This document shows, piece by piece, positions 2,675 to 58,808 of a stretch of DNA of 64,000 nucleotides. The position numbers and the translations under genes are program-made. The notes beneath the pieces are model-generated. The model was not told where the DNA came from, made no database searches, and saw nothing but the letters and a program-made list of their open reading frames with translations. How positions within the stretch are numbered: the first letter of the stretch is position 1; each line of letters begins with the position of its first letter. The DNA comes from an uncultured Acidobacteriota bacterium (GTDB lineage Bacteria > Acidobacteriota > Terriglobia > UBA7540): assembly GCA_963804995.1 (NCBI GenBank), contig CAWDSK010000006.1, positions 1,152,001 to 1,216,000 on the forward strand. The letters run 5' to 3'.

Positions 2675-2741
2675 TAATCCATAGCGCAGCGCGGCGGAGT
2701 CGCAACCAACGCGTCTCGTAGGGGTGCCCCTCGGCATCGGG

Positions 2742-3038
2742 AGCGAAATTTCGGAGTGCGGGAGCTTGCTCCCGCTTTTGCCACCGCTGACTCGTCAGCG
2801 GTCGGCGTATCGCCGGATCGAGTTGCGGCGCGGGAAAGCGGCGACGAGTCGCCGCACTCCGAAATGAGAGCCTGCACCACCCCTGCCGCAAAGCGAAATT
2901 TCGGAGTGCGGGAGCTTGCTCCCGCTTTTGTCACCGCTGACTCGTCAGCGGTCGGTGCATCGCCGCATCGAGTTGCGGCGCGGGAAAGCGGCGACGAGTC
3001 GCCGCACTCCGAAACGAGAGCCTGCACCAGCCCTGCCG
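2742..3038. repeat. Two tandem ~150-bp copies of a palindromic GGAGTGCG...CGCACTCC element; reverse copies at 39101-39215 and 54317-54430
   Basis: Direct repeat with offset 150, terminal inverted repeats and internal hairpins. Confidence 0.9.
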
Positions 3039-8649: not shown

Positions 8650-8702
8650 GTGGGACTGTCCCACAAGTTGGGCTCCGCGGGGCATAGCGAGCGAGGTCCC
8701 AC
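8650..8702 (+). repeat. GTGGGAC...CTCCGCGGGGC.TAG...GTCCCAC element; copies at 26028-26082 and 49472-49524
   Basis: Three dispersed copies with 7-bp terminal inverted repeats and a conserved core. Confidence 0.8.
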
Positions 8703-8908
8703 TTATTTCCCCACCCTCATGCGTTTTCTTCCTATGACTTTTCACGTGTGCCGCCGCCGCGCTAAGCTTCCATCTGGAGGCTTGTGCATCAGGCCTTCGC
8801 TCCGCCAGGCCCGCCAAGACTTTCTCTTCCCCTGGCGCTCACAAGTGTGGATAATGGCGCAGGCGGCGCGGGACATCTCAGACCTGCGGCGGCCCAAGGG
8901 ATATCATC

Positions 8909-16232: not shown

Positions 16233-16270
16233 CGACGGTCAGTACTGTCTGACGGTGGCCTTTTGCTTCG

Positions 16271-16352
16271 ATGACGGACCCACGGTCAATTCCCAAGACG
16301 AATTGGCCGTGGCTACCTTCGGGTCACACAACCTCGGGCGCCGTTCGAACGG
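16271..16352. repeat. 82-bp direct repeat (second copy 19346-19427) containing a GTAG-type REP hairpin
   Basis: Five mismatches between copies; minus strand GTAG-CCACGGCCAATTC-loop-GAATTGACCGTGG. Confidence 0.9.
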
Positions 16353-16362
16353 CGGGCTGGCG

Positions 16363-18276
16363 GTTGCGGTAGGGATACCGGTTACCCGGTACCCCCCGCA
16401 CGGATCCGTACGTGCGCTGGTTAGCGCATACGGCTCTTATCTCGGATGTGTGGCGGCGAACCGTTGGGATGGCCAAGGATGCACAACGTGCGGAGCAGGC
16501 AACCAGCAGGCCGCAAGCTTCCCCAGTCGGTCCCAGTTGAGGCGGTGGCGTTGACTGCGTTGACGCAGTTGCGTTCGCCACAGTCGGGTCAACCGTTCCC
16601 GAAAGATTCGCAGGCGGTCGAGGTTTCCCGGTACCGCGTGATAGTTGAAGTAGCCTTGCACGACCGACCGGAGCCATTTACCCGTATCCGCGATGGGATC
16701 GTGCCGACGCTGCCGGAGTTGTTGCTTGAGTTCCTGCAACTTCCCCCGCAGGCGCTTGCTGATCGTCTTCCGCTTCACGGTAAATTGCCCCCTCCGGTTC
16801 TTCCCGCTGATATGCGTGAAGCCCAGAAAGTCGAACGTCTCCGGCTTACCTTCTCCTCTCCGTTTCCGGTAAAGTTCGGCAAACGGCCCGAACTCGAATC
16901 CGGCGCGTTTTGTCAGGATGCAGTTCCAATCCAAACTTCCCCACCCGCTCCCGGAAATCCTCCAGAAAGCGGTCGGCTTCCGTCTGCGATTGGAATCCAA
17001 GGACCGTATCGTCGGCATACCGCACCACGACCACGTCTCCCCGGGCGTGCTTCTTGCGCCACGCCTGCACCCACAGGTCAAAGACGTAGTGCAGATAGAT
17101 ATTCGCCAGCAGGGGCGAGACCACCGCCCCTTGTGGCGTACCCATCTCCGTCTCCGACCATTCGCCTTCCTCCCTCACCCCGGCTTTCAGCCATTTCTGG
17201 ATGAGCCGGAGAATCCGGGGGTCGGCGACGCGATGCTGCACGAACTTGAGCATCCATTCGTGGGATATCGAATCGAAAAATCCACGAATGTCCGCGTCAA
17301 GAACGTAGTTCACGTGCTTCACCGTGAGCGCGTACGAGAGCGCGTCCAGCGCTTGATGCTGGCTGCATCCCGGTCGAAAGCCATACGAGAAGCCCAGAAA
17401 GTCTTCCTCGTAAATCGCCTTGAGGATGGTGACCACGGCCTGTTGGACGATCTTGTCCTCCAGTGCCGCAACCCCCAACGGACGTTGCCGCCCGTCGCCT
17501 TTCGGGATATACGCCCTTCGCGAGGGCTTCGCTCGGAATGCTCCGCGGTGGACCCGGCTGTGCAGATCGACGAGTCGACCTTCCAGCCCGCTTTCATACT
17601 CCTGCCACGTCATGCCGTCTACTCCCGGTGCAGCTTTTCGCTTCAAGGCGTAAAAGCTTTCCCGCAGCAGATCGACCGTTAAGTGGTGGAGCAAGGCCGT
17701 GAACTTCATCTCCCTGTGTTCCTTCGCGGCTTTCCGCACACCCGCGAGTCCCTGGGACACGCGTGCCCCGCTCTGTGTCGGGTGCGTGTTAGGCCAACGG
17801 GTGTTCTCCTTGATCAGCGGCCTTCCCTCCTCATTCTCCGCCAACGGCTTCCCGTCTTTGTTCAAATGATTCATCGGTACTGTTCCGCTGTCCGACTCCT
17901 CGAAAGCGTGCAGGCGGGCTGTACGGCCATCGCCTTTTCCCGCCGTCCGGCCACGATCTACGGCGGCCGGCGCCTCCGAGGTCTCCCGGTTCTCATGCAG
18001 AAAGTGTCTAGGCGTGTCTGGGGTCTACGACTACGCAGGACTGTGCCGGAACTCGCGTTGGCGTCCCGGCCTCATGTTGCCTTCCGTTTAGTCTGAAAAC
18101 GTCGGCGTCCTGATTGGACATTTTCGAAGCTCAATACCCAGCCCACCTATTCCCCTGTTTACGCTTCACCGTGCGCCTCACGACGCCCAGCGCAAAACTC
18201 GGGGCCGAGTGGATCGCTGCTCCTTCCTCGTGAGAAATTTTCATTCTCTGCTTTCTGCCGGTTTATCCCGGCGCAC
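16363..18276 (-). mobile_element. Group II intron, copy 1 (1914 nt)
   Basis: 5' GTGCG at 18276; domain V GAGCCGTATGCG...CGCACGTACGGATC; 3' ...CCCTACCGCAAC at 16363; near-identical to copy 2. Confidence 0.95.
16437..17874 (-). pseudogene. ltrA: Intron-encoded RT/maturase with a +1 frameshift
   Basis: Same as 41369..42805 except an extra A at 16897-16898 and one substitution. Confidence 0.9.
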
Positions 18277-18696
18277 CAGACCTAGTTGTTGGGGGTCTGC
18301 GATTTCGCGAAGCGACTTGTAGGAGCTGACGGCTCATACGAATCGGCTGGGAGAAGGGCACGCTGCCGGAGAGCAGTCCCGCGCCAAAGCCATGCCCGAA
18401 GGGAGTCCCTTAGGGAGATCGCAGACCCCAAAGTGCGGGGGTCTGCGCCAGCCCCGGGTGCATTGTCCAGCGCAAAATCGTTGTAACCTGGCCACCGCCA
18501 GACGAACCCACAGTCAGGAAGGCGCTGACCGTGGCTACCCCCCCAAGTCCGCCGCCACCCTTCGTGGCACGTCGGTGTGTAGCCACGGGCACAGCTCTCC
18601 TGACCGTGGACTTTTCCTTCGATGACAAACGCAATTCCCAAGGCGAATTGAGTGGCTTACGTTTGTTCGGTGGCAGCAGGTAGGGGGTTGCAAGGT

Positions 18697-19023
18697 CTAT
18701 GCGAGATCGGACGCCTTAATCTTGCGTCTTGCGCCGTGGCGGATGGTGAGCACTGACACCGCTTGGCGGCCTTCATCGACTTCATAAATGACCCGATAGA
18801 CGTGAGGCTTCCTGCCATAAAGCAGGTTCCGTAACTCTCGCTTCATCCTCCGAGCCTCCGGGGCTACGGGGCAGCGTTGGGGGTACGATGCGAGGCCATA
18901 GACCGCCAGCTCCAACTCGTTATACCACCGCGCCGCAGCGTGTGACTCCGCAGCGTTCTTTTCCAGATAAAGGATTTCAAGATCGCGGACCGCGCGAGCG
19001 GCAAACTCAACGAGGTATGTCAT
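18697..19023 (-). CDS. RelE/ParE-family type II toxin
   Basis: MTYLVEFAARAVRDL...YRVIYEV...VLTIRHGAR; overlaps the antitoxin stop. Confidence 0.9.
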   Translation of the reverse strand: MTYLVEFAARAVRDLEILYLEKNAAESHAAARWYNELELAVYGLASYPQRCPVAPEARRMKRELRNLLYGRKPHVYRVIYEVDEGRQAVSVLTIRHGARRKIKASDLA

Positions 19024-19297
19024 GTTTGCGGCGAATCTCGTCAAATACCTCTCTCGCCGGGCGAGTGCGTCCGTGGGCGACGTCATCCAAGCCCTGACGA
19101 ATGCCTTCCTCGGCATCGGCCTGGGCGGCAATATCGAGCAATCGCTGATAGGCTTCGGCGTCCTGTACGATGGCCGCTGCTTTCCCCCTCACGGTGAGCA
19201 CCACGGGACGCTTGTTCCTTCTGAGCTGTTTCATGAAATCGCCGGACCGGCGGCGGAAGGTTGTCAGCGACTGGATGTCCTTGGTAATGTCAAGCAT
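19007..19297 (-). CDS. Phd/YefM-family antitoxin
   Basis: DIQSLTTFRR...PVVLTVRGKAAAIVQD..AYQ. Confidence 0.92.
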   Translation of the reverse strand: MLDITKDIQSLTTFRRRSGDFMKQLRRNKRPVVLTVRGKAAAIVQDAEAYQRLLDIAAQADAEEGIRQGLDDVAHGRTRPAREVFDEIRRKHDIPR

Positions 19298-19332: not shown

Positions 19333-20065
19333 ACAAGAATACTCTATGACGAACCCACGGTCAATTCCCAAGACGAATTGGCCGTGGCCACCTCCGGGTC
19401 ACACAACCTCAGGCGCCGATCGAACGGGTGAATGCAATCACGAGATGTAGGGGTAGGGCTCCCGACTTCGCCGGGACAGGTTGCCCTACCCGGCGTTCCG
19501 CAGGGTGAATGCGAAACCAGGGGGCGGGTCGCCGCGGCGACTCCCCCTACGGCGAAGGGCCTTGCGGACGTTGGGGGTAGCGCCGGGACGAGTTCAGGCA
19601 ATTAGTTGCCCCCTCGTTTACGATTTGGGCTACCGGTTGCCCATTCTTACCTATTTTACATTGAATTACACCCAATATCAATGCTACTATGATGGTGAAG
19701 CTCCCAGTGCTAGTAGCTGGGGAGAAGCAATAGGCAGCGAGCGCTTTTTGCGAGTCCCGACTTGTCGGGGCGAGCGCTTTTTGTGAGTCCCGACAAGTCG
19801 GGATAGGCAGCGAGCGCGATTTGCGGGTCCTGGTGGGCCAGGGTGGACAGCACGCTGACTCCTGACTTCTGACTCCCCAACTCTGACTGCTGCACACAGT
19901 TAACTTTAAGCTGTCGGCTGTAAGCTGTCAGCTCTAAAAAGGAGATTCCGGGGAAGTCCGTCGCGTCACCAACCTGCTTCTGAAAATCATGCGCCGAGAG
20001 CTCAAAAAGGAGCCCGTGGGAGCAGGCAAAGAGGATCATCAAAGCCATGATGCGCGATTATTTAC

Positions 20066-20252: not shown

Positions 20253-21149
20253 ATGACGCTAGTTGATGTAAATACTCTCTTTCCGACGGAAGATAAATGC
20301 CGAGAGTTGCTGGTCCGACTTCGCTGGCCTAATGGCCCCGAGTGTCCACGTTGCAAGGCGAAGGTCGTAGAACTGGAAACTGAAAAGCAACTCTTCTACT
20401 GTAAAGACTGTGATTATCAATTCTCCGTAACCGCTGGCACGATCTTCAATGATTCTCACCTTCCGCTGGTCAAGTGGTTTATTGTAACTCTCCTGCTCTG
20501 CGAGGCAAAGAAAGGTATATCCGCCTGTCAGATTCAACGGACCCTCGGAATCAGTTACAAGACCGCATGGTATCTCTGTCATCGCATTCGCGCCGCGATG
20601 AAGGAAGTTGAGCAGCAGATGCTTGATGGAACCATTGAGATGGATGAAACCTTTATTGGCGGAAAGAAAAAGAACGTCTCGATGGCAGAAGCGAGAGAGT
20701 CCAAAGAGATCGTCATAGGGCTCCGCAAGCGCGCCGGGGAACTTCGATTCTTTCATTCCAAGGATGTGAAATCTGGGACGCTCGCGCAGTTCATCAAAGA
20801 CAACATCTCTGAGGATTTCGATGTGTTGATGACGGACGATTTCGCGGCCTATCCTGCTGCGGTCAAAAAGGCTAAGATCGACCCCAGTCAGCATCACACC
20901 ATCAACCACAGCAAGAAGGTGTATGCTGTCGGCGACACTCACACCAATACCATCGAGAATGCATTCTCTCTTTTGAAGCGCGGTATCCGAGGCGCTTGGC
21001 ATCATCTCAGTGCAAAACATCTGCTTTCTTACCTCGATGAAATGGCCTTCCGATTCAACAGGCGTAACTCCGAGGTGCTCTTTCTCGATACGCTGCGCCA
21101 CATGATTACTGCTCCGGTTCTGACTTTCAAGAAGTTGACGGTGGCGTAG
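20253..21149 (+). CDS. IS1595-family DDE transposase
   Basis: RWPNGPECPRC...CKDC zinc ribbon; EMDETFIGG, MTDD, HTNTIE, YLDE..FRFNRR. Confidence 0.96.
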   Translation: MTLVDVNTLFPTEDKCRELLVRLRWPNGPECPRCKAKVVELETEKQLFYCKDCDYQFSVTAGTIFNDSHLPLVKWFIVTLLLCEAKKGISACQIQRTLGISYKTAWYLCHRIRAAMKEVEQQMLDGTIEMDETFIGGKKKNVSMAEARESKEIVIGLRKRAGELRFFHSKDVKSGTLAQFIKDNISEDFDVLMTDDFAAYPAAVKKAKIDPSQHHTINHSKKVYAVGDTHTNTIENAFSLLKRGIRGAWHHLSAKHLLSYLDEMAFRFNRRNSEVLFLDTLRHMITAPVLTFKKLTVA

Positions 21150-25822: not shown

Positions 25823-26134
25823 GGACCCGGCCAGGGGGCCGGTTGAATTGTGGATACGGTGCAAATCGTCGATACTCCCAGGACTAGGCGCGAGTGGCGG
25901 GGGGGGTTCGGAGCGGACATAAAGTCCGCATGATTTGCTTCTGCGGGGGCTGGGCCTATACCGGGACAAGCTGACTTAAAGTCGGTGGGCAACGCCGCCT
26001 GGAGGGTGCGGGCTCGGTCGGGGGAAGGTGGGACAAAAACCCTAAAATTGCTCTCCGCGGGGCATAGAAGCCCAGGTCCCACATAAAAACAGGCCTTCGC
26101 TCACGCGTAGGCAAAAAATGTCAGGAGGAGAATC

Positions 26135-33844: not shown

Positions 33845-33872
33845 ATGTCGTCCTTGTCCCGCTAAACGAAGG

Positions 33873-34053
33873 TCGAAAATCGAAATTCGAAACTCGAAAA
33901 TCGCCCAGCATGACGTCGTTTCCCTTAATCACCAGCAGTCCCCAACACGAAATTCGAAACTCGAAATTCGAAACTTGCCCAGCTTGAAGTCGTTTCCCTT
34001 GATTACCCGCAGTCCCAAACACGAAAATCGAAACTCGAAATTCGAAACTCGTC
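33873..34053. repeat. Heptamer (TCGAAAN)n arrays within two ~75-bp tandem units
   Basis: tcgaaaa/tcgaaat/tcgaaac runs separated by repeated ccagc.tga.gtcgtttccctt.at.acc.gcagtccc. Confidence 0.9.
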
Positions 34054-34073
34054 CAGCTTGATGAGCTCTTCCC

Positions 34074-34475
34074 TCATCCGCCCTCGGTCGCCGACTTCAA
34101 CGCCAGCATTGAGCGCAGATATCCGTTCAGCAGTTGCGTTGCACGCTGGGCGATTCGGTCTACCTGGCGTCCCTCCGTAAGCGGGATATAACCCGCGTCG
34201 ACACACGTTGTCAGATGATCCCTCAACTCATAAAGCGACCCTCTGGCCTGCCGGCAAAATTACGCATTCTCTTGATAGCCAAACCGCCCAAACCCTTCAG
34301 CAATATTTGCCGTGACAGAGATTGCAGCCCGCCGAAGCTGGCTGGCCAGTCCAAACTTTTCTGACTCCGGCAGACCCTTGGCCACCTTGTATATCTCCTG
34401 CCTAAGCTCGCGAGCAGCCATCCATACATCCAAGTCTTTGAAATCTCGGACTCGCCCCTTGACCCGCTGGCCCAT
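34074..34475 (-). pseudogene. Four-helix-bundle (23S rRNA IVS protein / Avd-like) gene with an in-frame TAA at 34260-34262
   Basis: FKDLDVW, EKFGLASQLRRAAISVTANIAEG; the frame continues FCRQARGSLYELRDHL...LLNGYLRS after the stop. Confidence 0.9.
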
Positions 34476-34784
34476 CGTCACGGGCGAGTTTCGAGTTTCG
34501 ATTTTCGAGTTTCGCTCTTCAATTCGCGATTTTCGGCTATCCATCGCAGTGATGCCTACCTACCAGACTCCCCCCTTGAACTGCGGACCATCGTCACAGG
34601 CGAGTTTCGATTTTCGATTTTCGAATTTCGATCTTCGATTTTCGATTTTCGATTTTCGAGTTTCGAGTTTCGGCTATCCATTGCCGTAATGCCCATCTAC
34701 CAAACTCAGCCCTTGGACCGCCAGCCCATCGTCACGGGCGAGTTTCGATTTTCGATTTTCGATTTTCGATTTTCGGTTTTCCAT
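34449..34784. repeat. Three tandem ~120-140-bp units, each with an (NTTTCGA)n heptamer run
   Basis: ccatcgtcac.ggcgag at ~34472, ~34588 and ~34726, each followed by heptamers and tttcgg.t.tccat. Confidence 0.9.
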
Positions 34785-34799
34785 TCTCATGGAGTCTAT

Positions 34800-37636: not shown

Positions 37637-37698
37637 TATAGGTGGCGCGCAAAAACAGTGTCAAGAAAGCCGGTGCGGGGGGAGGGGTGCAGTTTGAC

Positions 37699-37771
37699 GT
37701 AGCGGCGGGTTTACCCCGCCATTTTATGCCACGCGATCGCGGGCAGGATGGCGGGGTAAACCCGCCGCTAC
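37699..37771. repeat. Inverted REP doublet identical to the REPs flanking the RAYT gene
   Basis: GTAGCGGCGGGTTTACCCCGCCAT at 37699-37722 and its reverse complement at 37748-37771. Confidence 0.92.
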
Positions 37772-38110
37772 GCCAGCAGACTGATCCGGTTCGGGCGGCG
37801 GCGTGACCGCCTAGCCTTACACAACTTGCTGGCGGCAATGGCGCCGATCGCGCCGCCGGAAGTACACCTTCGCGAAACAATTCAAGGTCCAATTCCCTCC
37901 GACGCGCTGAGGCAAGGTTGCCGCGTCGCATGATTCCACCTGCTTAGGAACAGACCGGGTGTGATCACCAGGCCGCCACCTCGTGCCAGAGAGTAGCGAA
38001 TGTATCCGAGGAGCAATGGCACATAAGTTAGATTACAAATTTTACGCTATGAAAACTCTTTTAATTTACGACTTGAAGTTGAGGCTACAAATCCCTATAG
38101 TTGAGGAGTT

Positions 38111-38842: not shown

Positions 38843-38860
38843 AGGCGCGCAGCGCCGGAA

Positions 38861-38997
38861 TCCGAAAATCGAAACTCGTAACCCGACATTCGAAATCCGC
38901 AATCCGAAATCCCCAGTTCGAAATCTGAAATTCGAAATCCAGAATCCGGAATTCGAAATCCCAAATTCGAAAATCGAAATCCGAAACTCGGAATTCG
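38861..38997. repeat. Degenerate (TCGAAAT/CCGAAAT)n heptamer array
   Basis: About 19 consecutive degenerate 7-mers. Confidence 0.85.
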
Positions 38998-39491
38998 CGG
39001 GTGGCGCCCCGATGCATCGGGGCGGCCCTTAAAGGTAGTAAGATGCCCTCGTTGTGATCGCCTCCATGCCAAAAGGCGGCACGCAGGCGCCACCCGCGCG
39101 TTTGGAGTGCGGCGACTCGTCGCCGCTTTCTGACGCCGCGACTAGTCGCGGCGTAACACCTGCCGCTGACAAGTCAGCGGTCAGAAAAAGCGGGAGCGAG
39201 CTCCCGCGCTCCAAAAATTGGGCGGGCGCCTCGACGAGTCGGGGCGATTTAGTTAAGCCAGCCGGTCCATGGTCAAGACGGACGAAGCGTTGCGGTCATC
39301 GCATCGGACGCCGTCCCGGGCCGAGCTCGTAATGGCGTCTCTAGGTCAGGACCATCGGGGGCAGGGTCAGACACGTGAAGCGCAGAGCTGAGCTCGCTCT
39401 GCGGCAGCCGGCCAAGCTTACTCCTCTTGAATCCGCTGGCAGGTGGCATTAGACTCTTGGCTCAAATCTGGTCAACTCCAGGAGTTACCCC

Positions 39492-41112: not shown

Positions 41113-41294
41113 CCAGCTTAGCCTCCAAACTGGAATTCCATTTTCGCCTTCCAGCGGCTCCGATTATACATCCACTTGTCTCCCCTTGAACGATGCGTTG
41201 GGAACGAAAAACGCCTTTTCCGGCGAGGTTGCCGTCGCATATCACCTCGGAGCATAGTGTGGGAAACCTGTCGATGTCCTTAGGCTGGCTGGCG

Positions 41295-43207
41295 GTTGCG
41301 GTAGGGATACCGGTTACCCGGTACCCCCCGCACGGATCCGTACGTGCGCTGGTTAGCGCATACGGCTCTTATCTCGGATGTGTGGCGGCGAACCGTTGGG
41401 ATGGCCAAGGATGCACAACGTGCGGAGCAGGCAACCAGCAGGCCGCAAGCTTCCCCAGTCGGTCCCAGTTGAGGCGGTGGCGTTGACTGCGTTGACGCAG
41501 TTGTGTTCGCCACAGTCGGGTCAACCGTTCCCGAAAGATTCGCAGGCGGTCGAGGTTTCCCGGTACCGCGTGATAGTTGAAGTAGCCTTGCACGACCGAC
41601 CGGAGCCATTTACCCGTATCCGCGATGGGATCGTGCCGACGCTGCCGGAGTTGTTGCTTGAGTTCCTGCAACTTCCCCCGCAGGCGCTTGCTGATCGTCT
41701 TCCGCTTCACGGTAAATTGCCCCCTCCGGTTCTTCCCGCTGATATGCGTGAAGCCCAGAAAGTCGAACGTCTCCGGCTTACCTTCTCCTCTCCGTTTCCG
41801 GTAAAGTTCGGCAAACGGCCCGAACTCGATCCGGCGCGTTTTGTCAGGATGCAGTTCCAATCCAAACTTCCCCACCCGCTCCCGGAAATCCTCCAGAAAG
41901 CGGTCGGCTTCCGTCTGCGATTGGAATCCAAGGACCGTATCGTCGGCATACCGCACCACGACCACGTCTCCCCGGGCGTGCTTCTTGCGCCACGCCTGCA
42001 CCCACAGGTCAAAGACGTAGTGCAGATAGATATTCGCCAGCAGGGGCGAGACCACCGCCCCTTGTGGCGTACCCATCTCCGTCTCCGACCATTCGCCTTC
42101 CTCCCTCACCCCGGCTTTCAGCCATTTCTGGATGAGCCGGAGAATCCGGGGGTCGGCGACGCGATGCTGCACGAACTTGAGCATCCATTCGTGGGATATC
42201 GAATCGAAAAATCCACGAATGTCCGCGTCAAGAACGTAGTTCACGTGCTTCACCGTGAGCGCGTACGAGAGCGCGTCCAGCGCTTGATGCTGGCTGCATC
42301 CCGGTCGAAAGCCATACGAGAAGCCCAGAAAGTCTTCCTCGTAAATCGCCTTGAGGATGGTGACCACGGCCTGTTGGACGATCTTGTCCTCCAGTGCCGC
42401 AACCCCCAACGGACGTTGCCGCCCGTCGCCTTTCGGGATATACGCCCTTCGCGAGGGCTTCGCTCGGAATGCTCCGCGGTGGACCCGGCTGTGCAGATCG
42501 ACGAGTCGACCTTCCAGCCCGCTTTCATACTCCTGCCACGTCATGCCGTCTACTCCCGGTGCAGCTTTTCGCTTCAAGGCGTAAAAGCTTTCCCGCAGCA
42601 GATCGACCGTTAAGTGGTGGAGCAAGGCCGTGAACTTCATCTCCCTGTGTTCCTTCGCGGCTTTCCGCACACCCGCGAGTCCCTGGGACACGCGTGCCCC
42701 GCTCTGTGTCGGGTGCGTGTTAGGCCAACGGGTGTTCTCCTTGATCAGCGGCCTTCCCTCCTCATTCTCCGCCAACGGCTTCCCGTCTTTGTTCAAATGA
42801 TTCATCGGTACTGTTCCGCTGTCCGACTCCTCGAAAGCGTGCAGGCGGGCTGTACGGCCATCGCCTTTTCCCGCCGTCCGGCCACGATCTACGGCGGCCG
42901 GCGCCTCCGAGGTCTCCCGGTTCTCGTGCAGAAAGTGTCTAGGCGTGTCTGGGGTCTACGACTACGCAGGACTGTGCCGGAACTCGCGTTGGCGTCCCGG
43001 CCTCATGTTGCCTTCCGTTTAGTCTGAAAACGTCGGCGTCCTGATTGGACATTTTCGAAGCTCAATACCCAGCCCACCTATTCCCCTGTTTACGCTTCAC
43101 CGTGCGCCTCACGACGCCCAGCGCAAAACTCGGGGCCGAGTGGATCGCTGCTCCTTCCTCGTGAGAAATTTTCATTCTCTGCTTTCTGCCGGTTTATCCC
43201 GGCGCAC
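41295..43207 (-). mobile_element. Group II intron, copy 2 (1913 nt, intact)
   Basis: GTGCG 5' end at 43207; domains V/VI and AAC 3' end at 41295. Confidence 0.96.
41369..42805 (-). CDS. ltrA: Group II intron reverse transcriptase/maturase with no endonuclease domain
   Basis: APGVDG, IPK.DG..RPLG, SYGFRPG, GTPQG, RYADD, FDFLGF; domain X GYFNYH; ends without HNH. Confidence 0.97.
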   Translation of the reverse strand: MNHLNKDGKPLAENEEGRPLIKENTRWPNTHPTQSGARVSQGLAGVRKAAKEHREMKFTALLHHLTVDLLRESFYALKRKAAPGVDGMTWQEYESGLEGRLVDLHSRVHRGAFRAKPSRRAYIPKGDGRQRPLGVAALEDKIVQQAVVTILKAIYEEDFLGFSYGFRPGCSQHQALDALSYALTVKHVNYVLDADIRGFFDSISHEWMLKFVQHRVADPRILRLIQKWLKAGVREEGEWSETEMGTPQGAVVSPLLANIYLHYVFDLWVQAWRKKHARGDVVVVRYADDTVLGFQSQTEADRFLEDFRERVGKFGLELHPDKTRRIEFGPFAELYRKRRGEGKPETFDFLGFTHISGKNRRGQFTVKRKTISKRLRGKLQELKQQLRQRRHDPIADTGKWLRSVVQGYFNYHAVPGNLDRLRIFRERLTRLWRTQLRQRSQRHRLNWDRLGKLAACWLPAPHVVHPWPSQRFAATHPR

Positions 43208-43511
43208 CAGACCCCTGATCTTGGGGGTCTGCGCCAGCCAAGCGGGATCGGCCGTTCGTGCAAAGGAGCGACAATCAGCATCCTTTCGCTCTGCCTCGAT
43301 TGTGCTTCCTCCTCCCCCGAGGCAGAAAAATCGGCCAAGCGCGCGATGGCCACCGAGTTGCTGTAATTTGTGCCGTGAGCGTAAAGTACCTCCATCGGCA
43401 TCCTGCCGCGCAAACACCTTCTAACAATACGCATAATATTGATTGGAAAGACTTTGTTCGGGGGCACAGTAAGAAGTCTACCCTTCCAAGATGCCGAGGG
43501 GATCGACCAAG

Positions 43512-45290: not shown

Positions 45291-45588
45291 CCAACAATAT
45301 ACACCTGACCGCCACTGGGTGCAATCGTGCGGGCGGGTTGGCGGGTTGGCTCCATCCCCCCCGCGCCGCTGTCAGCTCTTCGTTCGTTAGGCGCGGCCTC
45401 CCGTTTTGGGGTTCTTCCTTTGGAAAACCCGCAAATCTCCAAAACGGCGTCTGCACCAGACTTGTTTCTTCGCAACGGAACATTCGCTCAAATTGCACAG
45501 GAAGAACCGCGGACCTTAACGACGGAGGTCCGCGCTACGTTTGCTGCCACCTCGACCACGTCGCTCGGGGGCGGCTAGTCGTCCGAGA

Positions 45589-46023: not shown

Positions 46024-46500
46024 CTGAAATCTCCTTTTCTGATCTCAAGCTGGCTAACCGGTAATGAATCATCCCTCTTATACGGTCAAGCTAACGCGTT
46101 GTCTATGCCGTTCGGAACACTTGTTTGGTCAATAGTGCTCATCTCAGGTGAACCGCATCGGTGAGCGCCGGCGGGCGCGAAAAGCAGGTAGCGCATCAGA
46201 GTGTGGTCCTTTCACACTCTGCGGCTCTTATTTTGATAAACATGCGCGGTAGTAGTAATACGGTGTGATGACATGTGACGTGGTAACCCGATTTCTCAGG
46301 GGGTCGTAAGCGGTGATCGGCAGTCGCACGCAACAAATGAAGAGCCGCTCTTCGTTGTTTAGGCGGGCCGGCGCAGCGCGAGCGCAGCCCTGCGATTTGG
46401 TGTGGATTAAGCAGATAGCGCAGGACGGCAGAGCCCCCTATCGTAGGGGCACCCCTCGTAGGTGCTCTGAAGTGCCGAGGTAACCTCGCGGTTGCATTTC

Positions 46501-47281
46501 GTAGCGGCGGGTTTACCCCGCCATTTTCGGGCGGGTTTGCCCCGCCACATGGCAAGGTCACCTCGCGGTCCCTTTCGTAGCGGCGGGTTTACCCCGCCAT
46601 TTTCCAGGCGGCTTTGCGCCGCCATATGGCGGGGTAAACCCGCCGCTACGTCGGAGTGCTGAGGTGAACTCGCGGGTACGGTGATACAATCGCGCCATGC
46701 CGGCCTCATACTTTGTCCGCAGGCGGAATCGCCTACCGCGGTCTTGCTACCTGGGCCACCAGTGGTACTTCATCACAGCGTGGACAGGATTGGGCCAGAC
46801 GCACTTTTCGAGTGGCGAACTGGAGAGATTATTGCTGGACCTCTTACGAGCACAGTGCTCTTCCTGCTCCTTCAATGTCTACGCCTATTGCTTCATGCCT
46901 AACCATGTGCACCTCGAACTCGTTGGCCTTTCCGACCAATCGGATGCGATCTTACTCCTCCACGATTTCAAGGGAAACGCGACATCACACGCCCGCACCC
47001 TGGGCATTCGAAACCTCTGGGAGAAGGGTTTCTACGACCACATTATGAGAGACGACGACAGGCCCAACGCGGTGGCGTGGTACATTTTCAACAATCCGGT
47101 TAGAAAAGGTTTCGTGAAGGACCCGCGCGATTGGCCGCATTCAGGCTCGTGGATGTTCGATTGGAAGAAAGCGGTGGGGCCCATTGAACAGTACAACCCA
47201 CCCTGGAAGTAGCGGCGGGTTTACCCCGCCATTTCCGAGGCGGCCTTACGCCGCCACATGGCGAGGTAAACTCGCCGCTAC
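46501..47281. repeat. GTAG REP cluster flanking the RAYT gene
   Basis: 24-mers at 46501, 46577, 46626 (reverse), 47209 and 47258 (reverse variant). Confidence 0.92.
46697..47212 (+). CDS. REP-associated tyrosine transposase (RAYT/TnpA-REP, Y1 HUH)
   Basis: YFIT, YCFMPNHVH (HUH), LW.KGFYDH, WYIFNNPVR (catalytic Tyr); flanked by REPs. Confidence 0.92.
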   Translation: MPASYFVRRRNRLPRSCYLGHQWYFITAWTGLGQTHFSSGELERLLLDLLRAQCSSCSFNVYAYCFMPNHVHLELVGLSDQSDAILLLHDFKGNATSHARTLGIRNLWEKGFYDHIMRDDDRPNAVAWYIFNNPVRKGFVKDPRDWPHSGSWMFDWKKAVGPIEQYNPPWK

Positions 47282-47319
47282 ATCATCAAGCAATCTTTGC
47301 CGGGGAATGAAGGTGAATC

Positions 47320-49428: not shown

Positions 49429-49758
49429 CCGGAGGGGAAAAGAGCCCCCGGGTCCGCGACTTTTTGTCAATGTGGGACTGTCCCATTAGTTGCTCTCCGC
49501 GGGGCGTAGCGAGCGAGGTCCCACTACTTTCCCCAATCTGACGCGTTTTAGTCTATAACTTTGTCATGTGCTGTTTCGTCATGCTGCGCGGGAAATCCGG
49601 CTGAGAATCGCGCCGTCAAATGCAGGTTATGGGCCGGGCCCGAAGTCGATCCTGGAATTCAGGGCCAAGAGGCAAAAGCCATCGGCACCCAGCGCTGTTG
49701 TATTGAACAGCAATTCCGGATCAAGGTAAGATCCGGTGGTTTCAAATGGAGGTCTGTA

Positions 49759-54229: not shown

Positions 54230-54858
54230 GGACCATTGCATTGCGGTTGGGTTGCGGGATGCGGCCCTGCCCCAGGGCTAGCCCGCAATTCTCACCACGG
54301 GCAAGCGAACCGAAGCTTGGAGTGCGGCGACTCGTCGCCGCTTTCCAACGCCGCGACTCGTCGCGGCGAATCACTCAGCGCTGACGAGTCAGCGGTAGAA
54401 AAAGCGGGAGCGAGCTCCCGCACTCCGAAATTTGCCTCCGCGCGCCCGGACAAGCTGTTCGATCGTGGCGGGCGCGGAAACCATCAGAAAGGGCCTTTAA
54501 CGACGGGGGTTAAACCCCGCCCTTCCAAAGCCGTGATGAGAAATGCGGGCTAGGTGCACAAAATTTGCTCCTCGGCAACCCCCTCACCAGCCTGCGGGCC
54601 GAAAGCTGAATCTTTGTAGCGCGGGTGTCCCCACCCGCGTCCCCAGCAATCGCGGGTGGGGACACCCGCGCTACAACCCGGCCGCCACGCTGCCGCAGGG
54701 CCCAGGTCTGCGATTCACTTTCAGCAGAGGCCTTCAGGAACGCATTGACCCTGAACCCGAACAACGTTAGGATGCGGGCGTTGATTTTGTTGATTGCTTC
54801 CGTGATATGGGCCGTGGGACCTTGTGCCCGCAGCAGCCACCTCTAATCAGTAGTTATC

Positions 54859-58260: not shown

Positions 58261-58304
58261 GGGGTTCCCCTGTTACAAGTGCCAAGCAACCGAAAGACGA
58301 AAAA

Positions 58305-58360
58305 CGAAACTCGAAATTCGAAACTCGCCACGATTTTCGAGTTTCGATTTTCGAATTTCG
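58305..58360. repeat. Inverted heptamer arrays forming a hairpin; a second example at 58731-58787
   Basis: (CGAAANT)n facing (NTTTCGA)n across a short spacer. Confidence 0.85.
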
Positions 58361-58388
58361 GTCCTTGCAGGCCCGGTACCCGTCACTT

Positions 58389-58670
58389 CTAGAAAAACTC
58401 CAACGTGTGGTCAGCCACGTCGTCGCCCAGAACCTTTTCGGATTCCGCCAGCACCTGGCGAAAGACCGACTCGAGAAGAATCTGGCTATCGGAAATTGAC
58501 ACTACACCCAGCGTGGCGTGCTGCCAGACGTCCTCATGGTCAAGCTCCGCCACGGCCACGTTAAAACGCGCCCGAAGGCGGTCCCGCATTTTTCGCAGGA
58601 CCGCACGCTTTTCTTTAAGTGAGTGCGCGTAGGGGAGCTGGATTTCCAGGGTCAATACGCCAACCGGCAT
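58389..58670 (-). CDS. DUF503 (YlxP-like) protein
   Basis: AHSLKEKR.V...L..RFNVAVAE; conserved position between infB and rbfA. Confidence 0.93.
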   Translation of the reverse strand: MPVGVLTLEIQLPYAHSLKEKRAVLRKMRDRLRARFNVAVAELDHEDVWQHATLGVVSISDSQILLESVFRQVLAESEKVLGDDVADHTLEFF

Positions 58671-58808
58671 CAGTTCAGCCCCTCCGTCTGGAGGCCCGGG
58701 GTAGGGCGTCAGGATAAAGATGCGATAATTGAAATTCGAAACTCGAAATCCGGTCCCTCACTCACGAGTTTCGAATTTCGATTTTCGTCCTTTCTCTGGC
58801 CCCCAGCC

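What the first reader, a model, noticed from the sequence alone, without database searches (positions are those of the whole stretch)
16351..18453. Group II intron that homes into a REP-like palindrome family
Seen: both intron copies sit at the same junction in otherwise unrelated loci. On the minus strand it reads CGCAGACCCCCAA-N6/7-GGTCTG^CGCCAGCC. Removing copy 2 rebuilds a 17-bp perfect inverted repeat (TGGCTGGCGCAGACCCC-8nt-GGGGTCTGCGCCAGCCA). Removing copy 1 rebuilds one arm of a REPIN-like doublet whose partner hairpin is at 18420-18453. A candidate EBS1, CAGACU in a hairpin loop (plus 18090-18095 and 43021-43026), pairs with exon GGUCUG. The IBS2 region differs between the two sites. 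Unoccupied matching junctions exist at 18445/18446 and 43231/43232. Established: IIC introns use terminator or attC hairpins, but this intron has an AGC triad and an RT without endonuclease. Inference: it exploits a multi-copy intergenic repeat as a renewable, harmless target, i.e. a retroelement parasitising a REP system.
Basis: partly seen in the sequence, partly recalled or inferred. Interest (0 to 1): 0.8.

Follow-up and report, generated by a model that had tools for sequence, protein, structure and literature searches.

The report
Class E intron homing into REPs
A self-splicing mobile intron has recently copied itself about forty times in this bacterium, always into one exact spot of a small repeated palindrome (a REP), which it most likely finds by ordinary RNA-DNA base pairing at the replication fork, so REPs serve as an abundant landing site between genes for this kind of element.

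Summary
Observation confirmed, with far more support than two copies. The genome holds 40 copies ≥99.6% identical. All 36 with both flanks sit at the same base of a REP family: 35 in a clear hairpin, 1 in a degenerate one. REP-associated transposases (RAYTs) are flanked by these REPs. The intron is class E, not IIC.

Occupancy falls with EBS1 mismatches (31/152, 4/188, 0/186). The untagged arm is never used (0/174). Copies follow the lagging-strand template (24/25 vs 67/173 empty sites).

Best reading: sequence-guided, endonuclease-free retrohoming into a multicopy REP. Recognition of the hairpin as a structure is neither shown nor excluded; close relatives also use non-palindromic sites. I found no published intron with a REP homing site in the held library. 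This scan has already reported this element several times in this genome (e.g. e1-7823220, e1-7823266) and similar cases in other genomes.

The parts
16363..18276 (-). Group II intron, class E, copy 1 (1914 nt); ORF frameshifted by one extra base near 16898
   Evidence: the only one of 39 near-full copies without the 478-aa ORF
16846..17874 (-). 5' part of the frameshifted RT/maturase ORF of copy 1 (342 aa); the rest is in frame 16437-17081
18090..18095 (-). EBS1 (CAGACU) in the D1 terminal loop; pairs with exon -6..-1
   Evidence: covaries with IBS1 across relatives
18117..18120 (-). EBS2 (UGUC); pairs with exon -12..-9, which is the REP loop
16363..16436 (-). Domains V (AGC triad at 16435-16433) and VI of copy 1
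   Evidence: read; same layout as class E reference L169
18277..18301 (-). 5' exon: left part of the interrupted REP (5' arm, loop, IBS2, IBS1)
16355..16362 (-). 3' exon: last 2 stem bases plus the complement of the REP's CTGG tag
18420..18453 (+). Empty partner REP of the inverted doublet; unoccupied junction 18445/18446 on the disfavoured strand
41295..43207 (-). Group II intron copy 2 (1913 nt)
41369..42805 (-). Intact RT/maturase ORF, 478 aa (P0001), YADD, no endonuclease domain
43021..43051 (-). EBS2 (43051-43048) and EBS1 (43026-43021) of copy 2
43208..43240 (-). 5' exon of copy 2: most of a REP tagged at both ends; its second junction 43231/43232 (+) is empty
41286..41294 (-). 3' exon of copy 2: completes the 17-bp inverted repeat
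45505..45538 (+). Empty GTAG-type member of the target REP family (IBS1 GGTCCG, junction 45532/45533)

Best explanation
A class E (IIB-like, endonuclease-free) group II intron whose homing site is a REP. The RNP recognises the target as a linear sequence: EBS1 (CAGACU) pairs with the 3' arm (-6..-1), EBS2 (UGUC) with the loop (-12..-9) and EBS3 with C+1. A further contact, probably by the protein, reads +2..+5, the complement of the REP's GTAG/CTGG tag and the two bases next to it. [quoted passage not shown] Because RAYTs have spread hundreds of such REPs between genes, one homing site became about 150 perfect sites, and a recent burst filled about 40. SHOWN here: copy number, target identity, RAYT association, class, the EBS1 and EBS2 covariation, the arm asymmetry and the strand bias. 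INFERRED: splicing, reverse splicing, priming at the fork, a protein contact at +2..+5, EBS3 identity, and low cost to the host.
For: 40 copies, mean 3.6 substitutions between 39 aligned copies, 38 of 39 with an intact ORF. 36 of 36 with both flanks are in the REP family. Occupancy by unpaired EBS1 positions among 526 tagged hairpins: 31 of 152 (none), 4 of 188 (one), 0 of 186 (two or more). A 90%-identical intron in G001 has EBS1 CGGACU and C at -2 in 6 of 6 sites, while G000 has EBS1 CAGACU and T at -2 in 33 of 37. EBS2-exon pairing across 35 distinct EBS1/EBS2 rows: 2.86 vs 1.81±0.12 shuffled, 0 of 5000 shuffles reached it; slid registers z -0.2 to 2.3. Other arm of the same palindromes: 0 of 174 filled, and only 13 of 174 have ≥3 IBS2 pairs vs 119 of 157 on the used arm. 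Strand: 24 of 25 filled vs 67 of 173 empty sites on the G-rich strand of C3-C6 (p=2e-8); on C2 all 5 copies switch strand at dnaA. The REPs themselves are not strand-biased. RAYTs passing NF047646 are flanked by these REPs, one filled in each of two cases. Lagging-strand homing by the En-minus RmInt1 is described in PMC5894124 (passages).
Against: EBS1+EBS2+EBS3 pairing is not sufficient: 0 of 104 non-hairpin, untagged sites with a perfect IBS1, C+1 and 4 IBS2 pairs are filled, including about 33 intergenic ones. An extra determinant is needed, and tag and hairpin nearly always occur together. Tagged non-hairpin sites are filled at 1 of 36 vs 31 of 157 for hairpins (p=0.012), though not significantly once IBS2≥3 is required (1 of 19, p=0.12; 10 of the 19 are one repeated sequence). 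Four filled sites have ≤2 IBS2 pairs, including both window sites. The tag is not used by all relatives (L117, L145, L103, L105). Five of six G001 sites have one IBS1 mismatch. The EBS2 register was picked after scanning 120 combinations, and relatives are not independent. With a local-skew strand call over all contigs the bias is weaker (25 of 35 vs 95 of 234, p=8.5e-4). No expression, splicing or mobility was observed.
Confidence: 0.72

Rival explanations
1. Structure-assisted homing: as well as base pairing, the RNP needs the REP to fold as a single-stranded hairpin (loop exposed for EBS2, stem then invaded by EBS1). This would be a second origin, outside class C, of hairpin-reading target selection.
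For: 35 of 36 filled sites have ≥8 of 10 stem pairs and the last has 7; tagged non-hairpin sites are filled 1 of 36 vs 31 of 157. In metagenome copies chosen only on IBS1 plus the intron start, 12 of 16 distinct readable flanks have the 5' arm, vs 7.8% of 8,843 such hexamers in G000. A 60%-identical class E lineage (L105, L160) also sits in CTGG-type palindromes, on the other arm.
Against: IBS1 is buried in the stem, unlike IIC targets. Close relatives occupy non-palindromic sites that pair with their own EBS1/EBS2 (L145, L185, L187; read by eye). Sister lineages within the same RT clade use non-palindromic repeats (L017, L018, L025, L032). Of 90 distinct related junctions with both flanks, 78 have no such stem. 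A high share of palindromes is expected anyway if most good linear sites are REPs.
Confidence: 0.2
2. RAYT-assisted homing: a RAYT nick 5' of the tag, on the tag-bearing strand, leaves a 3'-OH in the intron's 3' exon on the bottom strand, where an endonuclease domain would cut, and primes reverse transcription.
For: The geometry fits: the intron always enters the strand opposite the tag, 2 nt from it. TnpA-REP cleaves at CT 5' or 3' of single-stranded REPs (PMC8266576, passages). Two RAYT-flanking REPs are filled.
Against: Filled sites have no excess of the CT or CA cleavage dinucleotide at +7..+30 (12 tests, all p≥0.43). Strand bias already points to priming at the fork. Relatives use the other arm or non-REP sites.
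Confidence: 0.04
3. Selection, not targeting: the intron inserts at many IBS1-like sites and only insertions in REPs survive; or the copies are assembly duplicates.
For: 73 of 106 perfect non-hairpin sites lie in predicted genes. Four contig ends fall at intron copies.
Against: About 33 intergenic perfect sites and 174 intergenic-type other-arm sites are empty. Flanks are distinct and there are 33 distinct intron sequences among 39. An intron end joined to the same REP type occurs in a public run (X1, loose end at 43213) and in JGI contigs.
Confidence: 0.04

Closest known systems
Bacterial class E (IIE) group II introns, e.g. the pBPHY02 and pBCJ2315 introns labelled E in Miura et al. 2022 (PMC8919778 Table 3, rows seen) and Cl.be.I2 (PMC3753933)
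   Same: IEP 57-58% identical and in one 100/100 clade; no En domain; EBS1 and EBS2 at the same place in D1; same DV/DVI layout.
   Different: 40 near-identical chromosomal copies in one REP family. The papers read do not describe a REP homing site for this class.
RmInt1 and RmInt2 of Sinorhizobium meliloti (class D; PMC5894124, passages)
   Same: En-minus; homing site in a multicopy mobile element (ISRm2011-2; the inverted repeats of ISRm17); bias to the lagging-strand template; target about -20 to +5.
   Different: Class D, 33% identical; targets are IS elements present in 4-13 copies, not a 30-bp REP present in hundreds.
Class C (IIC) and IIC-attC introns (PMC4424553, PMC7923331, passages)
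   Same: En-minus; intergenic hairpin targets; strong lagging-strand bias; high copy number.
   Different: 30% identical to the class C reference. IIC has a short IBS1 after the stem and no EBS2; here IBS1 is 6 nt inside the stem and EBS2 covaries.
REP-targeting insertion sequences IS1397, ISKpn1, IS621, ISPa11, ISPpu9/10, ISPsy8, ISRm19/22 (PMC1525189, passages)
   Same: Mobile element at one fixed position of a REP in every copy.
   Different: Those are DNA transposons; this is an RNA-guided retroelement. That paper's table lists P. putida group II intron copies as REP-associated in only 2 of 9 cases.
GTAG-family REPs/REPINs with RAYT (PMC3733652, PMC8266576, passages)
   Same: Tetranucleotide tag 5' of a palindrome, inverted doublets, RAYT gene flanked by the repeats.
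   Different: One subfamily carries CTGG instead of GTAG ('CTGG' has 0 occurrences in PMC3733652).

Membership tests
Group II intron | GUGYG 5' end, AY 3' end, D1, DV triad, DVI | tested here: met
   RF02005 at 170 bits vs cut-off 49; ends and DV read
Group II intron | RT/maturase ORF in DIV | tested here: met
   TIGR04416 342 bits vs cut-off 300
Group II intron | Self-splicing and mobility | not testable with these tools
   RNA contigs (X15) touch the region but cannot show splicing
Bacterial class E | IEP groups with class E references | tested here: met
   57-58% vs 30-35% to C, D, F, G, CL1A; 100/100; three E references, two of them identical
Bacterial class E | No endonuclease domain | tested here: met
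   only RVT_1 in Pfam
Bacterial class E | EBS1-IBS1 and EBS2-IBS2 pairing potential | tested here: met
Bacterial class E | RNA features named in PMC3753933 (alpha' at a stem-loop tip in DId3; 5-nt DV loop) | tested here: inconclusive
   DV loop here reads as 4 nt closed by two extra pairs (by eye); alpha' not mapped
Class C (IIC) | IEP in class C | tested here: not met
   30% to the pSymB class C reference
Class C (IIC) | No EBS2; 3-4-bp IBS1 just after a stem-loop | tested here: not met
   6-bp IBS1 inside the stem; EBS2 covaries
REP/REPIN-RAYT | Short palindrome, high copy, extragenic | tested here: met
   527 tagged hairpins; 9 of 234 empty target-type sites in predicted genes (rough gene caller)
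REP/REPIN-RAYT | GTAG tag 5' of the palindrome | tested here: met
   met for the main subfamily (24 of 39 3' flanks begin CGCTA); the window's subfamily has CTGG
REP/REPIN-RAYT | Cognate RAYT flanked by the repeats | tested here: met
   3 of 14 Y1 genes flanked vs 26 of 5,674 genes; two scanned, both pass NF047646
REP/REPIN-RAYT | Inverted doublets | tested here: met
   161 of 269 target-type REPs have an inverted partner within 250 bp
REP/REPIN-RAYT | RAYT cleaves and mobilises these REPs | not testable with these tools
   needs biochemistry

The most novel reading that the evidence does not exclude
A class E intron lineage has evolved a REP-specific targeting mode. It needs the folded single-stranded REP, reads the loop with EBS2 and the RAYT's own tag with its protein, retunes EBS1 as REP families diverge, and by splitting tag from stem removes REPs from RAYT control. 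That would be a fourth target specificity beside homing sites, terminators and attC, and a retroelement parasitising the REPIN-RAYT system.
Probability: 0.2. Interest if true: 0.75.

Novelty: new variant of a known kind. Interest (0 to 1): 0.5.

Why it matters
Reviews list three target specificities for bacterial group II introns: homing sites, terminators and attC (PMC4424553, passage). High copy number on chromosomes is mostly a class C and CL trait (PMC8919778, passages). This case shows how an ordinary sequence-guided intron can reach about 40 copies, by homing into a repeat that another element has already spread between genes. It is also a natural experiment: about 500 variant sites with known fill status give the relative weight of EBS1, EBS2, tag and strand in vivo for class E, whose EBS2 role in homing was left open (PMC3753933). 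If the hairpin proves to be required, it is a second origin of structure-based targeting. If not, it is a tidy new target for a known mechanism.

Tried and rejected
1) 'Only two copies': BLAST found 40.
2) Class C membership: rejected by identity, tree and EBS2. The PDB search gave only distant IEPs (E about 1e-39).
3) 'IBS1 alone': 0 of 1,722 untagged non-hairpin sites with a perfect IBS1 and C+1 are filled.
4) 'Hairpin plus tag alone': 0 of 111 GGACCG and 0 of 57 ACTCTG variants are filled.
5) RAYT-nick priming: no dinucleotide excess.
6) Transcription orientation: filled and empty sites show no clear difference in flanking-gene orientation (not tested formally).
7) Tyrosine-recombinase context for the second target motif of more distant relatives: 0 of 52 flank ORFs from 26 loci hit a phage-integrase family (1.5-kb flanks only).
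8) Public runs: none holds half of the region's words; contigs of 4 runs show neither an empty allele nor splicing at copy 2, which proves nothing.
9) Script faults: searches had errors or too-strict patterns and were redone.
10) Literature: nine searches of the held library gave no paper describing a group II intron with a REP homing site. Subscription papers, the Zimmerly database and some supplements (a .doc and a .pptx) were not readable and may bear on this.

Full report
1. Observation. The window holds two copies of one group II intron on the minus strand: 16363-18276 and 41295-43207. Rfam RF02005 matches both at 170 bits. Copy 2 encodes a 478-aa RT/maturase (TIGR04416 above cut-off; only RVT_1 in Pfam, so no endonuclease). 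Copy 1 has one extra base that splits the ORF.

2. Genome-wide test. BLAST found 40 copies at ≥99.6% identity, 39 near full length and one cut by a contig end. Because four sit at contig ends, the number of distinct loci may be 38-39. All 37 readable 5' flanks end RGTCYG and all 39 readable 3' flanks begin CGCYA. I removed the introns in silico and scanned all 5,167 RGTCYG-C junctions. Of the 36 filled ones with both flanks, 35 lie in a hairpin with ≥8 of 10 pairs and one has 7. None of 1,722 untagged, non-hairpin sites with a perfect IBS1 is filled. The copies are young: mean 3.6 substitutions, and 38 of 39 ORFs intact.

3. The target is a REP. Read on the other strand, the site is a tag (GTAG, or CTGG in the window's subfamily), 2 bases, the insertion point, then the rest of a 10-bp stem with a 7-8-nt loop. 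A relaxed search gives 527 tagged hairpins, and 161 of 269 target-type ones have an inverted partner within 250 bp. With a rough ORF caller of my own, 9 of 234 empty and 1 of 36 filled sites fall in genes. Three of 14 Y1 transposase genes are flanked by family members, vs 26 of 5,674 genes overall. The two I scanned pass NF047646, REP-associated tyrosine transposase. In both, one flanking REP carries the intron. Tag, palindrome, doublets and RAYT are the REP features described in PMC3733652 and PMC8266576 (passages).

4. Class. The IEP is 57-58% identical to three plasmid IEPs labelled class E in the table of PMC8919778 (rows seen; two are identical) and 30-35% to one or two references each of C, D, F, G and CL1A. 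Query and E references form a 100/100 clade. Its closest relatives are in Acidobacteriota (best 79 loci of 565).

5. What selects a site.
(a) EBS1. Among 526 tagged hairpins, 31 of 152 with full pairing are filled, 4 of 188 with one unpaired position, and 0 of 186 with more. In G001 a 90%-identical intron has EBS1 CGGACU and all 6 sites have C at -2, although 5 of the 6 carry another mismatch and only 3 have a full stem.
(b) EBS2. A 4-nt segment 5' of the EBS1 stem (UGUC here) covaries with exon -9/-10 to -13 across relatives: 2.86 vs 1.81±0.12 pairs over 35 distinct EBS1/EBS2 rows, 0 of 5,000 shuffles; 2.78 vs 1.78 over 25 distinct EBS2; slid registers z -0.2 to 2.3. Caveats: 62 of 113 junction rows matched my pattern, rows with EBS1 pairing under 5 were dropped, the register was chosen after a scan, and kin are not independent. 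In G000, 32 of 36 filled sites have 3-4 pairs; among tagged hairpins, sites with ≥3 pairs are filled 31 of 187 vs 4 of 82 (p=0.01). The two window sites are among the weak ones.
(c) Arm. Each palindrome offers IBS1 on both strands, yet the untagged arm is filled 0 of 174 vs 31 of 157 (p=2e-11). IBS2 lies in the loop, the asymmetric part: 13 of 174 vs 119 of 157 have ≥3 pairs.
(d) Something more. 0 of 104 non-hairpin, untagged sites with perfect IBS1, IBS2 and C+1 are filled; about 33 of such sites are intergenic. The extra determinant is either +2..+5 or the hairpin, and this genome cannot separate them: tagged non-hairpin sites are filled 1 of 36 (p=0.012), or 1 of 19 with IBS2≥3 (p=0.12), and 10 of those 19 are one repeated sequence.

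6. Replication strand. On contigs C3-C6, which have a consistent GC skew, 24 of 25 filled but 67 of 173 empty target sites are on the G-rich strand, i.e. the lagging-strand template (p=2e-8). C1, C7, C8 and C9 were left out for weak or mixed skew; a local-skew call over all contigs gives 25 of 35 vs 95 of 234 (p=8.5e-4). On C2 the five copies change strand across dnaA at 123,925. REP orientation itself is even. Perfect sites are filled 25 of 58 on the favoured strand and 1 of 69 on the other. This matches the RmInt1 pathway (PMC5894124, passages).

7. Other genomes. REP targeting recurs in G001 (6 copies), G027 (2 of 3), G003 and G007, and in L016. In JGI contigs picked only on IBS1 plus the intron start, 21 loci gave 16 distinct readable flanks (2 too short, 3 duplicates); 12 have the 5' arm, vs a 7.8% background. 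A public run shows an intron end joined to a GTAG-type REP (X1). Against a hairpin rule: L145, L185 and L187 have no palindrome. Sister lineages in the same RT clade use a non-palindromic repeat, and 78 of 90 distinct related junctions have no such stem. L103, L105 and L160 use the other arm of CTGG-type palindromes; L105's IEP is only 60% identical, so REPs were probably adopted more than once.

8. Mechanism. Most likely (about 0.7): ordinary class E homing by EBS1, EBS2 and EBS3 pairing plus a probable protein contact at +2..+5, into single-stranded lagging-strand template, with the REP as a homing site that RAYTs have multiplied. Structure-assisted recognition remains possible (about 0.2). 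RAYT-nick priming fits the geometry but found no support. Selection alone or misassembly is unlikely. Splicing, mobility, priming and host cost are inferred, not shown. That insertion inactivates a REP for RAYT is inferred from the importance of tag and stem in PMC8266576 (passages).

9. Comparison and novelty. It works like RmInt1/RmInt2 (multicopy mobile target, fork priming) and occupies the niche of IIC introns and of REP-targeting ISs (PMC1525189, passages; its table lists P. putida intron copies as REP-associated in 2 of 9). It is a member of class E and not of class C. Papers seen: passages of PMC7923331, PMC3753933 (plus section 6), PMC4424553, PMC3733652, PMC5894124, PMC8919778 (plus supplement rows), PMC8266576, PMC1525189, PMC12584367, PMC8643678, PMC7306698; PMC3552965 (passages, part 1 of section 3, supplement S2 and part 1 of S1); PMC4028801 (part of one supplement, not useful). 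Nine searches found no paper describing a REP homing site for a group II intron; the library lacks most subscription papers and the intron database. This scan has already noted the same element at least four times in this genome and similar cases elsewhere. Those are unchecked AI notes and not independent support. My reading before the first look-up was already class E, REP, RAYT and lagging strand.

10. Verdict. Real and strongly supported; a new variant of a known kind. Interest 0.5; about 0.75 if the hairpin proves to be read as a structure (probability about 0.2).

Noticed in passing
L019-L022, L033-L035, L043, L046, L051, L054-L058, L060, L062-L070, L075-L077, L080, L084-L088, L092 (exon flanks): A large set of 73-78% identical class E relatives in Acidobacteriota inserts into another recurring ~31-bp imperfect palindrome, from either side, with EBS1 matched to each side. 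It resembles a recombinase core site (my recollection of such sites; compare e1-2478804). No tyrosine recombinase was found within 1.5 kb.
   Followed up: partly
L017, L018, L025, L032, L123, L132; G000 C2:652257 and C1:206552: A sister lineage targets a non-palindromic A-rich repeat (core TGAAAAvAAAG, 36 matches in G000); two other introns or relics in G000 sit in it.
   Followed up: partly
L016, L026, L100-L106, L148, L150, L153, L160, L164: Several relatives begin with a 2-nt longer 5' end (GAAAGCG, GUAAGCG, GAUAGCG); the boundary is fixed by EBS1-IBS1 pairing. Some are ORF-less ~650-nt introns in the same REPs.
   Followed up: partly
window 46697-47212, with repeats at 37695-37774, 46497-46652, 47205-47284: A RAYT (NF047646) flanked by a different GTAG REP family that the intron does not use.
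   Followed up: partly
G000 C2:304854: A third Y1 gene flanked by the ACTCTG variant of the target family, which is never filled.
   Followed up: partly
window 33846-34790, 38856-39006, 58284-58790: Arrays of a 7-bp repeat (TTTCGA[AGT]-like) in both orientations.
   Followed up: no
window 2740-3013, 39101-39220, 54317-54442; 8650-8727, 26040-26085, 49472-49549: Further dispersed palindromic repeat families.
   Followed up: no
window 16268-16352 and 19343-19427: An 85-nt direct repeat (93%) brackets copy 1 and a ParE-like ORF at 18697-19131; an IS1595 transposase follows at 20253-21149.
   Followed up: no
G000, 39 aligned intron copies: Seven shared polymorphic columns give 33 distinct sequences, suggesting several donor copies or recombination among copies.
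   Followed up: no
G000 C6:2168574-2172663 and C7:1-3886: Pairs of copies in adjacent REPs of tandem arrays at contig ends; real double filling or assembly overlap was not resolved.
   Followed up: no
L170:341-371: The class E reference on pBCJ2315 sits in a CTG-N10-CAG box next to imuA that looks like a LexA operator (motif recalled; seen).
   Followed up: no
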